The position numbers and the translations under genes were made by a program. From the NCBI GenBank assembly GCA_964016885.1, contig OZ024754.1, forward strand, positions 18,910,001 through 18,974,000: a stretch of 64,000 nt of DNA, in the 5' to 3' direction. Shown piece after piece: positions 1 to 27,377 of the stretch. The notes below the pieces were generated by a model, which made no database searches, was not told where the DNA came from, and was given only the letters and a program-made list of their open reading frames with translations. Every line of letters begins with the position of its first letter. Within the stretch, counting starts at the first letter, position 1. Origin of the DNA: Eledone cirrhosa (taxonomy: Eukaryota).

Positions 1-1173
1 TATATGATCAACACTACTGTGTTTTTTTTGCAAAATGACAATAATTTTTTAGCCAGATAGAAATACCTTAATTCAGGTACATATAGTCCGTCTGTATCGA
101 TCTAGAGAATATTAAATATTAAATCTATACTTACAGACGTAAAATGGCAACTGCCTGGTGCCTAGACAAGTTTAAATTTCAAAATTCAAACCTTTTCAGC
201 AGATCGGGCGGAACTTCAAAACATAAACCTGTTTCCCAAGGGATGTTATACTAATGAAATAATTAATTAATTACGGAACAACTATTTATAAAATATTTAT
301 TAGTAAAGCAATCAATTTTCTGTGATCTTCGGTAGGCACCCTTACGTCTGTAAGTATAGATTTAATATTTAATATTCTCTAGATCGATACAGACGGACTA
401 TATGTACTTGAATTAAGGTATTTCTATCTGGCTAAAAAATTATTGTCATTTTGCAAAAAAAACACAGCAGTGTTGATCATATATTTTTTTTAATTATTTT
501 TAAAACTATAATGTAATGCTCAGAAGTATTTTCTTAGAGCTTAATATTTGTAACTGACTACTAAACTGAAATTAAACTGCTCCTACGGTGAGCTGAATTC
601 ATAATCACATATTCACGGCTGCTATTTCTAGCGCCATGGATATGAGCCAGAATGCTGAGAAGGTCGTGTGCAAAAGCACATGTATTAGGCTTGCGACAGA
701 TCAGTCTTAAGATATTATCTTAGAAGAAGTGATTTTAATTTCTGGGTGCCTACCGAAGATCACAGAAAATTGATTGCTTTACTAATAATTATTTTATAAA
801 TAGTTGTTCCGTAATTAATTAATTATTTCATTAGTATAACATCCCTTGTGAAACAGGTTTACGTTTTGAAGTTCCGCCCGATCTGCTGAAAAGGTTTGAA
901 TGTTGAAATTTAAACTTGTCTAGGCACCAGGCAATTGCCATTTTACGTCTGTAAGTATAGATTTAATATTTAATATTCTCTAGATCGATACAGACGGACT
1001 ATATGTACTTGAATTAAGGTATTTCTATCTGGCTAAAAAATTATTGTCATTTTGCAAAAAAAACACAGTAGTGTTGATCATATATTTTTTTTTATTATTT
1101 TTAAAACTATAATGTAATGCTCAGAAGTATTTTCTTAGAGCTTAATATTTGTAACTGACTACTAAACTGAAAT
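1..1173 (+). mobile_element. ORF-less PLE pLTR / retrozyme-like array: 601-nt unit with partial direct repeat and inverted copy
   Basis: 342-572 repeats 943-1173 (offset 601); 1-341 is the reverse complement of 744-1084; ends in (TA)n; contains an HHR. Confidence 0.8.
742..930 (+). ncRNA. Enlarged type-I hammerhead ribozyme, CCGAAGA core variant
   Basis: Stem I GGTGCCTA/TAGGCACC; core CCGAAGA 753-759; GAAA 850-853; stem III ACAGGTTTA/TAAACTTGT; GTC cleavage triplet ending 920; second copy on minus strand in 157-341. Confidence 0.7.
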
Positions 1174-8196: not shown

Positions 8197-9393
8197 GAAA
8201 TATCCACGGTTAATTGTGGGGTCTAGTCTGCATGAGGAACTCAATGTAATCCATATGTTGAAAATTTTGTAGGTTAAAATAAATCCCGGAAAACAATAAA
8301 ACATCAAAAGGAAAACAGAGTCATGTAGGGTTAGTTACAAAATATATTGCTTTTGACAACGGCTGATGATATACATGTAAGTAAATATATTCCTTATCTG
8401 ATATTTTGTATCTAACCCTACATAGATCGATAACGAAATATGCGTACGATGTATTACTATCACATAGAAACGATCGCAAAGCAGTGAAGTATATTTCTAA
8501 TGACTTGAATTTTTATTTCATTGTTTTAACTTATATGTATATATATATATATATACACTATAGTCAGGTATATTGGTATTACATTTGATATATACACAAT
8601 ATACAGTATAGTTCGGTATATTGGTATTTCATTTGATATATATACACAATGTACATTATTCTTCCCTCATAAGTTCATCCCTTGGTTAAAATTCTACCCC
8701 TGGGATTCAAAATTTCTCCCTTGGAGCTCGGTGCTACCCGTTTAAGAATCACAGCACCAGACGTACTGAGTAAAAAACAACAGAAAGCAAACATTGGTAA
8801 GAAGACAGAGCGGATGTCTGAAGGAATGGAATTGACACGAGGAACCAAAATGGCTAATATGGATTATCTGCCTTAGTAATCCGGTTGATAACGTAGACAG
8901 AAAAGATAAGAACTACTTTAGTTTATTAGTCTGCACACTCTCCCCCCTTCCTCCCCTCCTTTCTCTCTCCCCCTCTCCCTCTCTTTCTCTTCCCTCCTTC
9001 TCTCTATCTTCCTCCTCTCTCTCTTTCCACGCCCTCTCTCTCTTTCCCACCCCCCTTCGCTCTTTATTCCTCGAAAACAATATGATCAATCCGATATCGA
9101 TCAGCCATTCACAACTGTCCACTTCTCTAGCATGTGCCTCAAATACAAAAACACCTTTCCCCACCCCACCATGTACCTAACCCCCCCCCCCCTCACCATG
9201 TATCTCAAATACAACCAAATGCCATGTCTTTAAAATAAAACCCCCTCCCGCTCCTCGCCATTCATTCGTAGGAAAATAACATTTGAAAGAAGACGTTTTG
9301 GTGCGAAGAAAATTTCAATTAAATACTTTTACTAAAACTAATAGAAACATCAACATTACCTAAAAATCCGATACAATTGCAGGGCTTGTTGTT

Positions 9394-24736: not shown

Positions 24737-26528
24737 TCAGCTATATACTTTGTGAAAGGTCTTGTAGGATTTATGATTACAAAGTCCAAATAAATCGGTT
24801 CTTCTATTTATTATTGTGTTGAAATTCGAGATAATGGTAAATTTTTCAGCTAGACATAAATTACAAACACTAGATATGGAACAATTGGAGTATGGAGATG
24901 CGTTGTAGATTTTACGCCAAGAAATTTCGTAATTTATGATTTTGTCTTTTAAGGACCAAATAAGTTCTGAGAGTGCGGTGCTGGTCCTTTTAAGTGAAGA
25001 TTTAAACGTAGAAAAATTATTATAGAATCTTGCTTTAAAGGAGGTAGAAGTAGAGCCAGTGTAGGTATAGGAATTGGTACTAGTTACCACTTTACATTCG
25101 TATACTAGGTTTTTATCGAGATAGAAATTACTAAGAGGACAATTAGTTCTAATAGGGCAATTGCATTTACGATTAAGATTATTTACATACTTATTGGCAA
25201 GGGGCCCAGGATTAATTATCTTAGCATTAGAAGTGGTGGAATTAACTAAAGGAGGTGCTAAAGTTTCTAGATTTACATTACTATTTGATGGATTCCTCAA
25301 AGTTACGTTTGACGCCGTATTTATACTTGTGTTATTTTGCCTAGAGTTTACATTGACGTCGGGCCTTATACTGTTATTATTATTACTCTCATGGTTGGAT
25401 GCATATGGGTTATTATTTAATATTTTAAAATTATGTCTTGAGATAATTTTTGAAATGTTCGAAGTAGTAGAATACGAGAATTTAATAGTATGCCTATTGA
25501 AAATCTTGCTATATATATGTGAAGGAGGGAAGCTGTTATGTAATGCCCTAAAAAATAATTTAGGGATATTATTAATAACGGAAAGAGAGAAGGGAGCGTT
25601 GTACCAAAGGATATTTTTATATCTTGGTCTCCTCCTTTTGTTAGCAGTATGATTATTACTACCAACATTACTAGAGTTATTATAACCTCTGCCAAGATTA
25701 TGTTCTTTAGTATACCTAATTTTATCTAGATATCCATCCCTAGATAGCGCATTATTATAATAGTTGGCATTAGATTCGAAGATATTCTTATTAGAGGATA
25801 AATTAGAAATTCTTTTTTCTACGCTTTTGACTATGGCAGTTTTAACGTTATTAGGGTGGTTAGATTTAAAGTTAACGTAATTTAAGTCCTCATTATCTTT
25901 ATGATATGGGTAATGTAGGCCGGTATCTAGATTAAGGGATATATCAAGGAAATTTGCTGGTTTATCATTATTCTCGAATTCAATTTTTAAGTTAAGATGC
26001 TTAAATAGATCAAGTATTTTTTTCTTAAGTAAATTAAAGTGTACAGTGTTACAATTAGAGACAGTAAAGAGAGCATCATCACGATAAATCCCACTGCAAA
26101 GTTGGGGTATTTTCCGGTTTAAAGAATTCAAGATGAAAATTCCAACTAAGTCGGTCAGTTGAGCTGAATCCGAACAACCCATGGTGATGTCGAAATTGTT
26201 GGAAGTATCCGCTCTTGTCCAATATTCGTTCTTAAATTCCAAGATGGTTTTCCTAGCGGTGAGAATGATGTTTATTTCATCACTAGTAATGTCCGTATAT
26301 TTTAAAGCATACGAGAGAGCCTTGTTTAGGAGTGAAGGAGAAACAGAAGAGTAATAGCTAGCAATGTCTAATTGAATAAATTTCAGTTTGTTTTTATTTT
26401 TTAGGTCATTGAACCAGTCTATTACTTCAGATGAACCCAACCATAAATTTAGTTGAGATTTATTCTTAACCTGTGGGATAATTCTATCCAAGATGGATTT
26501 ACTAATAACCCCTAAGTCAGACTTAGCA
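24737..26528 (-). mobile_element. 5-prime-truncated Hydra-clade-like PLE with uninterrupted RT + GIY-YIG ORF (>584 aa)
   Basis: AKSDLGVISKSILDRI, QLDIASYYSS, MGCSDSAQLTDLVG, GIYRDD, NFLDISL, SNHP, CNC..CPL, LVYEC..YTGST..FKAR, CNLCLAEK. Confidence 0.93.
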
Positions 26529-27309
26529 TTAAAAGCATTTTGAAGACCGTAAGCTATTGTTTTAAAGTAGTGACAAATTCGGCTTATCTCCCCTGTTTGC
26601 TGAGATCAAAGTGAGTGAATTTGTCACTACTTTAAAACAATAGCTTACGGTCTTCAAAATGCTTTTAATTAAGCATAAAGTGTATTGCAAAATACATTAT
26701 ATATACATCCATATATATATTGCTATTTCAGAGCTCCAATTCTAATTTTTAATTTCTGCCTGACCAACAACTGCTCTGCATAATCATCTCATGATTATTT
26801 ACTAGATTTCTATAAGAATATAACATCAATGATCTCAGTAAACAGGTGGGGTAGTTGGCCTTGATAAGCTTCAACCAAAGCGAAACAAGACTTGTCGGCT
26901 TATCTCCCCTGTTTGCTGAGATCAAAGTGAGTGAATTTGTCACTACTTTAAAACAATAGCTTACGGTCTTCAAAATGCTTTTAATTAAGCATAAAGTGTA
27001 TTGCAAAATACATTGTATATACATCCATATATATATTGCTATTTCAGAGCTCCAACTCTAATTTTTAATTTCTGCCTGACCAACAACCGCTCTGCATAAT
27101 CAGCTCCTGATTATTTACTAGATTTCTATAAGAATATAACATCAATGATCTCAGTAAACAGGTGGGGTAGTTGGACTTGTCAGCTTATCTCCCCTGTTTG
27201 CTGAGATCAAAGTGAGTGAATTTGTCACTACTTTAAAACAATAGCTTACGGTCTTCAAAATGCTTTTAATTAAGCATAAAGTGTATTGCAAAATACATTA
27301 TATATACAT

Positions 27310-27313
<4 letters not shown>
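26528..27313 (+). mobile_element. 316-nt tandem HHR repeat (2.4 copies) with a 53-bp inverted lead
   Basis: Units start at 26581, 26897 and 27182; 26528-26580 is the reverse complement of 26617-26669. Confidence 0.88.
26830..26924 (+). ncRNA. Type-I hammerhead ribozyme, U3-A8 core, long stem I
   Basis: TGATCTCAGTAAACAGG..GGCC TTGATAA GCTT CAACCA AAGC GAAA CAA GAC TTG TC GGCT..CCTGTTTGCTGAGATCA. Confidence 0.82.

Positions 27314-27377
<64 letters not shown>

What the first reader, a model, noticed from the sequence alone, without database searches (positions are those of the whole stretch)
1..1173. Giant hammerhead with a CCGAAGA core inside a 601-nt retrozyme-like unit
Seen: stem I GGTGCCTA(745-752)/TAGGCACC(921-928) closes exactly on CCGAAGA and GTC. 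GAAA(850) opens a 9-bp stem III (ACAGGTTTA/TAAACTTGT) capped by ~50 nt. Stem II spans ~90 nt (TCA/TGT or TGG at the base, TACTAAT/ATTAGTA inside). U4C is present in both copies. The unit occurs as 1.4 direct copies plus an inverted copy that begins at stem I, with no ORF. Inference: an oversized, core-variant HHR that size-limited searches would miss. The greater-than-unit length fits reverse transcription around a circular or tandem RNA.
Basis: partly seen in the sequence, partly recalled or inferred. Interest (0 to 1): 0.85.

Follow-up and report, generated by a model that had tools for sequence, protein, structure and literature searches.

The report
Oversized hammerhead in Penelope-type parasitic repeat
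A 600-base non-coding repeat, copied hundreds of times into TA microsatellites of an animal genome in the pattern Penelope-like retrotransposons leave, carries an unusually large hammerhead RNA motif whose pairings are kept by compensating mutations, and many copies break off just after its predicted cut site, so it likely cuts its own RNA, although cutting and RNA circles are untested.

Summary
Observation confirmed. The 601-nt unit belongs to a family of roughly 700 copies in a 3.0-Gb animal genome, with subfamilies 74-98% identical. It has no ORF. It inserts into (TA)n as partial tandems plus inverted 5'-truncated arms, with two alternative 3' ends: the Penelope-like element (PLE) 'tail' signature (57 of 77 two-arm insertions). 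Comparative evidence makes the 154-184-nt motif a real type I hammerhead. C3-G8 swaps with U3-A8, stem I goes G-C/G.U/A-U, N7 and H17 vary as allowed, and stem III (~21 bp) shows paired changes. U4C is not a family trait: it arose in the window's young subfamily, and an offshoot also lost A6. 5' truncations pile up just 3' of the predicted cut (30 vs 7 and 9 in flanking 25-nt bins). That suggests cleaved RNA is the template, but an RT stall is not excluded. Cleavage, expression and circles are untested, and no partner PLE was identified. Verdict: new variant of a non-LTR retrozyme.

The parts
1..341 (-). Inverted, 5'-truncated arm (equivalent to 744-1084). It continues 32 nt upstream of the window to the short 3' end (~1116) and then (TA)n, and carries a second hammerhead at 157-340
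342..572 (+). Partial upstream unit (equivalent to 943-1173); its 5' end lies 23 nt after the predicted cut
573..1173 (+). Full 601-nt non-coding unit, subfamily A
745..752 (+). Stem I 5' strand; pair 748-925 is G-C, G.U or A-U across subfamilies
753..759 (+). Core positions 3-9, CCGAAGA here (C3, U4C, G8); UUGA(A/G/U)AA in older subfamilies; A6U in offshoot D
760..849 (+). Stem II domain, 90 nt here and 60-66 nt in subfamilies E-G. Weak base (760-762/847-849), helix 768-776/816-824, and hairpin 784-794/798-808, which E-G lack
850..853 (+). G12 A13 A14 A15.1
853..919 (+). Stem III, ~21 bp (853-874/898-919) with one variable internal mismatch and a ~23-nt cap
918..920 (+). GUC triplet; predicted cut after C920 (GUA in subfamily E and some C copies)
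921..928 (+). Stem I 3' strand; start of the 5'-truncation peak (+1 to +25)
1090..1116 (+). Short 3' end, AU-rich; inferred first reverse-transcription start site
1117..1173 (+). 'Tail' between the two 3' ends; 1173 is the long 3' end, the inferred second start site
   Evidence: PMC11167929
1172..1191 (.). (TA)n target tract

Best explanation
The unit is a non-coding repeat with a covarying, oversized type I hammerhead, likely copied by the reverse transcriptase and endonuclease of an unidentified Penelope-like element, and its ribozyme likely cuts tandem transcripts slowly and incompletely after C920. Model: tandem loci are transcribed (inferred). Only some hammerheads cut, because the catalytic stem II register competes with more stable folds (predicted). 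The PLE protein would nick a (TA)n tract and start cDNA at two AU-rich internal sites ~60-80 nt apart (inferred from the two 3' ends). It would read through uncut hammerheads and stop at or just before the 5' end left by an upstream cut. This gives partial-plus-full tandems, and a second, inverted arm from the other start site. Shown: architecture, target, two 3' ends, covariation, truncation peak. Inferred: transcription, cleavage, the PLE partner.
For: Architecture: 212 of 231 non-tandem 3' ends run into (TA)n, 204 of 231 sit at one of two sites, and 57 of 77 two-arm insertions have one long and one short end. This matches the PLE structure and tail described in PMC8557442 and PMC11167929. 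Hammerhead: positions 3/8 are C-G in 60 and U-A in 59 of 120 copies, with 1 deleted and no mismatch (partly pattern-selected). In a position-ordered census 94 of 96 family copies keep the pair (hand count). Stem I 748-925 is G-C in subfamilies A-E, and G.U in 21 and A-U in 13 of 35 G copies. On 31 chosen copies 94.4% of cells pair against at most 49% when slid, and 5 pairs change on both sides. N7 is A, G or U and H17 is C or A. Compact hammerheads of two other repeat families in this genome show the same W-C-A/U-G-U stem II base and G-C/A-U/U.U exchange at 10.1-11.1. Truncations: 30 at +1..+25 against 7 at -24..0 and 9 at +26..+50 among 126 unbiased ends (p about 1e-4 and 1e-5); 11 vs 2 vs 2 in subfamily A.
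Against: Each compensatory change is one or a few events on a tree; the number of covarying pairs alone is reached by 42 of 500 shuffles. RNAalifold and nearest-neighbour folding pair G12 in a C761-G850 helix, and the catalytic register costs 4.0-8.1 kcal/mol. Subfamily D carries A6U, a core change expected to be damaging (A6C is, PMC7151607), yet makes up 11 of the first 100 census hits, so amplification does not need a perfect core. The truncation peak could be an RT stall at the foot of a -45 kcal/mol structure. The step at the cut itself is weak (8 ends at +1..+8 vs 2 at -8..-1, p about 0.055), and the exact-site ends are blurred by microhomology. In the anole PLE, cleavage was not needed for insertion in vitro (PMC11167929). 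No partner PLE was identified.
Confidence: 0.62

Rival explanations
1. Same element, but the template is a ligated ~570-600-nt circular RNA (classical retrozyme cycle), which the PLE enzyme copies round more than once.
For: Arrays of 5 or more head-to-tail units exist. Animal retrozymes make circles (PMC7229834, passages). The long stem III would allow monomer cleavage.
Against: A circle has no 5' end at 921, so the truncation peak would need a separate stall explanation. Many copies also end at the unit boundary near 573. No RNA data bear on it.
Confidence: 0.2
2. The fold descends from a hammerhead but is now weak or dead, at least in the window's A/D branch. It is kept as a structural or protein-binding element, and the truncation peak is an RT stall.
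For: U4C then A6U accumulated in amplifying subfamilies. A has U.U at 10.1-11.1 and a 7.5 kcal/mol penalty. Cleavage was dispensable in vitro for the anole PLE (PMC11167929).
Against: The A branch restored a Watson-Crick 3-8 pair by two changes. G12-A15.1, U16.1 and H17 are kept across 74% identity. U4C keeps enough activity in a viroid (PMC3088659, citing its ref. 30).
Confidence: 0.13
3. The unit is only the pseudo-LTR of a coding PLE whose full-length copies were not sampled.
For: PLE pLTRs carry hammerheads, including U3-A8 variants (PMC4209133). The searches score only the best 40 candidates, and flanks were 1-1.5 kb.
Against: In 169 overlapping loci, the 113 unit starts were judged by eye to follow another unit, an inverted arm, (TA)n or unrelated flank, and no ORF adjoins the unit. 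Head-to-tail junctions are conserved in all subfamilies.
Confidence: 0.05

Closest known systems
Animal non-LTR retrozymes (Cervera and de la Pena 2020, PMC7229834, passages read; Li, Clavereau and Pollet 2026, 10.64898/2026.07.22.740005, first fifth and passages read)
   Same: Non-coding, AT-rich tandem units with one type I hammerhead each; unit length within the reported 51-972 bp; proposed PLE mobilisation.
   Different: Hammerhead of 154-184 nt with a 60-90-nt stem II domain and ~21-bp stem III instead of a compact motif with loop 1-loop 2 contacts; mostly 1-2.5 units with inverted arms in (TA)n; circles not shown.
PLE pLTR hammerheads (Cervera and de la Pena 2014, PMC4209133, parts 1-2 of 4 read)
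   Same: Type I topology; U3-A8 instead of C3-G8 as in Schistosoma Cercyon elements; long helix III as in fungal and protist PLE hammerheads.
   Different: Metazoan PLE motifs there are minimal, dimer-type, with helix II of 7-8 bp; this one has a long monomer-type stem III, a multi-hairpin loop II and no ORF.
PLE insertion structure and two-site initiation (Craig et al. 2021, PMC8557442, passages; Frangieh et al. 2024, PMC11167929, parts 1-2 of 4)
   Same: Partial tandems, inverted 5'-truncated arm, (TA)n targets, and a tail present at one end that lies between two RT start sites.
   Different: Tail ~60-80 nt instead of 30-40; non-autonomous; genomic 5' ends cluster after the hammerhead site, whereas no RNA-seq reads ended there in the anole element.
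Natural core variants and discontinuous hammerheads (Perreault et al. 2011, PMC3088659, section 8 and passages; de la Pena et al. 2017, PMC6155905, passages)
   Same: U4C, U3-A8, U10.1.U11.1 and 2-bp stem II are all described; Clec2 hammerheads tolerate 150-1500-nt insertions.
   Different: The Clec2 insertion is in helix I of a type III motif in an mRNA; here it is in helix II of a mobile type I motif. A6U was not found in the passages read.

Membership tests
Hammerhead ribozyme (type I) | Core C3-U4-G5-A6-N7-G8-A9 / G12-A13-A14, A15.1-U16.1, H17 at a three-helix junction | tested here: met
   Window copy differs only by U4C, a known natural variant; other subfamilies have U4 with U3-A8; D has A6U
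Hammerhead ribozyme (type I) | Stems I and III kept by compensatory change; 3-8 pair covaries | tested here: met
   few independent events
Hammerhead ribozyme (type I) | Stem II closing directly between A9 and G12 | tested here: inconclusive
   2-3 bp register exists and matches compact relatives, but is invariant in the family and 4-8 kcal/mol less stable than folds that pair G12
Hammerhead ribozyme (type I) | Loop 1-loop 2 tertiary contact for fast cleavage | not tested
   Not searched systematically; loop II is a 60-90-nt domain
Hammerhead ribozyme (type I) | Self-cleavage after H17 | not testable with these tools
   Only indirect: 5'-truncation peak
Non-LTR retrozyme | Non-coding tandem units, each with a type I hammerhead, dispersed in the genome | tested here: met
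Non-LTR retrozyme | Expressed, and accumulates as circular monomer RNA | not testable with these tools
   No RNA run available
PLE-mobilised element | Partial tandem plus inverted 5'-truncated arm, tail at one end, microsatellite target | tested here: met
PLE-mobilised element | Sequence shared with an autonomous PLE partner | tested here: inconclusive
   PLE-like ORF fragments lie nearby but none is joined to the unit; no genome-wide protein search was run
Autonomous PLE | RT plus GIY-YIG ORF between pLTRs | tested here: not met

The most novel reading that the evidence does not exclude
A lineage of giant monomer-type hammerheads (154-184 nt) with a modular, growing loop II domain acts as a deliberately leaky switch in a PLE parasite. 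The genome records its in vivo cuts as 5' ends of insertions, showing that ribozyme-cleaved linear RNA is the template of Penelope-type retrotransposition. The young branch retuned the core with a coupled U3C/U4C/A8G change.
Probability: 0.3. Interest if true: 0.75.

Novelty: new variant of a known kind. Interest (0 to 1): 0.52.

Why it matters
The role of hammerheads in PLE transposition is open: cleavage was dispensable in vitro and no RNA ends were seen at the site in the one reconstituted element (PMC11167929). A family of hundreds of datable copies with a truncation peak at the predicted cut makes that question testable from genomes alone. It also shows that curated models miss large hammerheads, so retrozyme counts are likely too low. 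The subfamilies supply a natural series of core variants (U3-A8, C3-G8 with U4C, A6U, GUC/GUA, with or without a 30-nt hairpin) for assays.

Tried and rejected
Rfam scan at E<=10: no hammerhead hit. Pfam on the neighbouring PLE-like frames: nothing. Search for canonical-core relatives with the window's stem I: 77 matches; the 20 fetched were unrelated. Sequencing-run search: no RNA holder listed; three runs of unknown kind from one sample and study, possibly the assembly's source. Their contigs served only to spot variant letters. An alternative core using the GAAA at 765-768 was rejected by inspection (no stem III partner). Homology of the unit to the two compact-hammerhead families was not detectable, so their shared stem II base is an analogy. 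One search was swamped by microsatellite hits and not used beyond the printed sequences. In one search one reference carried host flank; one search supersedes it. Lunse et al. 2017 on PLE hammerhead variants is not held and may describe similar variants. Literature searches found no report of a 60-90-nt helix II domain or of a truncation peak at a PLE hammerhead site; the library lacks most subscription journals and no supplements were read. One search used a cephalopod guess from microsatellite content; the organism was not determined. Earlier-findings look-ups by sequence and by a long word list were empty.

Full report
Observation. No frame inside the element exceeds 52 aa. The arrangement is not chance: 0 of 20,000 shuffles reach stem I >=8 with stem III >=9, and the fold has z = -4.0. 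Rfam reports no hammerhead. The insertion begins 32 nt before the window and has (TA)n on both sides.

The family. The genome is 3.0 Gb; its microsatellites and retrotransposons mark it as an animal, and the organism was not determined. The cleavage-site 18-mer has 757 matches within two mismatches against 23 for the control. The 5' core region has 218 plus 311 exact pattern matches (controls 2 and 19). Variant letters in public contigs led to subfamilies: A (CCGAAGA, the window), D (CCGUAGA/CCGUUGA), B (UUGAAAA), C and E (UUGAGAA), F and G (UUGAUAA). The first 100 of 218 census hits were 30 A, 31 C/E, 18 B, 11 D, 6 singletons and 4 unrelated (hand count); 84 of the first 100 of 311 were UUGAUAA (hand count). 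A tree of 39 copies (5 of 44 picked were skipped) is a ladder G-F-E-C-B-A-D with identities of 74-98%. With midpoint rooting, U3-U4-A8 is ancestral, C3-C4-G8 arose once on the short branch to A, and A6U arose inside A. The root is not independently tested.

How it moves. Of 231 non-tandem 3' ends, 212 run into (TA)n and 204 lie at one of two sites, about 1090-1116 or 1173. Of 77 two-arm insertions, 57 have one end of each kind, 4 are short-short, 1 is long-long and 15 involve another end. Partial tandems, inverted 5'-truncated arms, (TA)n targets and a one-sided tail are the PLE signature (PMC8557442, passages), and the tail was shown to lie between two RT start sites (PMC11167929). In 169 overlapping loci with 1-1.5 kb flanks no ORF adjoins the unit; long frames nearby belong to other elements or host genes. 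The unit is therefore non-autonomous, as proposed for animal retrozymes. No partner was identified.

Is it a hammerhead? Yes by comparative evidence. Positions 3 and 8 are C-G in 60 and U-A in 59 of 120 copies, with no mismatch; 94 of 96 census copies keep the pair. This is the covariation known from natural hammerheads (PMC3088659; PMC4209133). Stem I 748-925 runs G-C, G.U, A-U. N7 takes A, G or U, and H17 takes C or A. Stem III extends to ~21 bp with paired changes at 856-916 and 864-908. On 31 chosen copies 94.4% of cells pair, against at most 49% for slid structures, and 5 pairs change on both sides. Against over-reading: these are few events; 42 of 500 shuffles reach 5 such pairs; and the shuffle control ignores relatedness.

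The weak point is stem II. The domain is 90 nt in A-D and 60-66 nt in E-G, which lack the hairpin 783-812. The base is invariant apart from 760 (U or A). Folding prefers a helix that pairs G12, and the catalytic register costs 4.0-8.1 kcal/mol, tertiary contacts ignored. Two unrelated repeat families in the same genome have compact hammerheads with the same W-C-A/U-G-U base and G-C, A-U or U.U at 10.1-11.1, which favours the catalytic register by analogy only. U.U there and 2-bp stems are described as tolerated. U4C is a known viroid variant with reduced activity. A6U in D, 11% of the census sample, shows that amplification can proceed with a damaged core; A6C is strongly deleterious in Mg2+ (PMC7151607).

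Does it cut in vivo? Among 126 5' truncation points from loci not selected on that region (34 of 160 set aside), 30 fall at +1..+25 from the predicted cut, 7 at -24..0 and 9 at +26..+50 (p about 1e-4 and 1e-5). The peak is seen in A (11, 2, 2) and in F/G (13, 3, 6). This is what a template with a 5' end at 921 would give. An RT stall at the 3' foot of the structure predicts a similar peak, however. The step across the scissile bond is only 8 vs 2 in 8-nt windows (p about 0.055, hand-computed), and the exact-site ends have microhomology with (TA)n or with stem I. A smaller excess near the 5' edge of stem I (12 at -199..-175) may be partly due to selection.

Mechanism. Most likely, tandem loci give multimeric RNA that a slow hammerhead cuts at some units. 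A PLE protein primes from nicked (TA)n at two internal AU-rich sites and copies through uncut ribozymes to a cut end. Architecture, covariation and the peak are shown; transcription, cleavage and the partner are inferred. A circular template (0.2), a dead structural relic (0.13) and an unsampled coding parent (0.05) are the rivals.

Novelty. The element class, its mobilisation, U4C, U3-A8, long helix III and large insertions in a hammerhead helix (Clec2, helix I) are all known. Not found in eight searches: a 60-90-nt modular helix II domain in a mobile type I hammerhead, or a genomic truncation peak at a PLE hammerhead site. Lunse et al. 2017 was not available and supplements were not read. 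Verdict: real, a new variant of a known kind, interest 0.52.

Noticed in passing
window 26541-27320 (+): A second non-coding element with a 316-nt period carries a compact U3-A8 hammerhead at 26861. It has an inverted arm, ends in (TA)n and is homologous (71-83%) to loci L198, L201, L206, L207 and L211, whose hammerheads have C3-G8: an independent case of the same covariation. The last copy (~27170) has lost the core.
   Followed up: partly
window 24737-26605 (-): A 622-aa open frame of a PLE-like RT with a C-terminal CxC linker and GIY-YIG-like region (Neptune-like from recalled motifs), interrupted at its 5' end by the element above.
   Followed up: no
L031 8600-9880 (-), just upstream of the window: Broken PLE-like 3' fragment (thumb, linker, endonuclease by recalled motifs; no Pfam hit) sharing the (TA)n tract with the finding, with a degenerate compact hammerhead-like motif near 8220.
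   Followed up: partly
L192-L197, L200, L202-L205, L209, L210: A further small (TA)n-inserted family with a minimal U3-A8 hammerhead, palindromic stem III and GUA triplet; stem II base varies between G-C and A-U/U.U.
   Followed up: partly
window 766-832: The stem II domain looks built from degenerate ~15-nt AT-rich repeats, some containing the complement of the G12-A15 region, which could form an 'off' hairpin.
   Followed up: partly
L074, L075, L081 and other hits: A near-identical repeat accounts for about 29 of the 77 matches, many close to contig ends; possibly subtelomeric. It shows no hammerhead partner strand.
   Followed up: no
L034 from 2160 (+): A 303-aa frame resembling a UDP-glycosyltransferase exon (recalled likeness, not searched) lies directly beside a family copy.
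   Followed up: no
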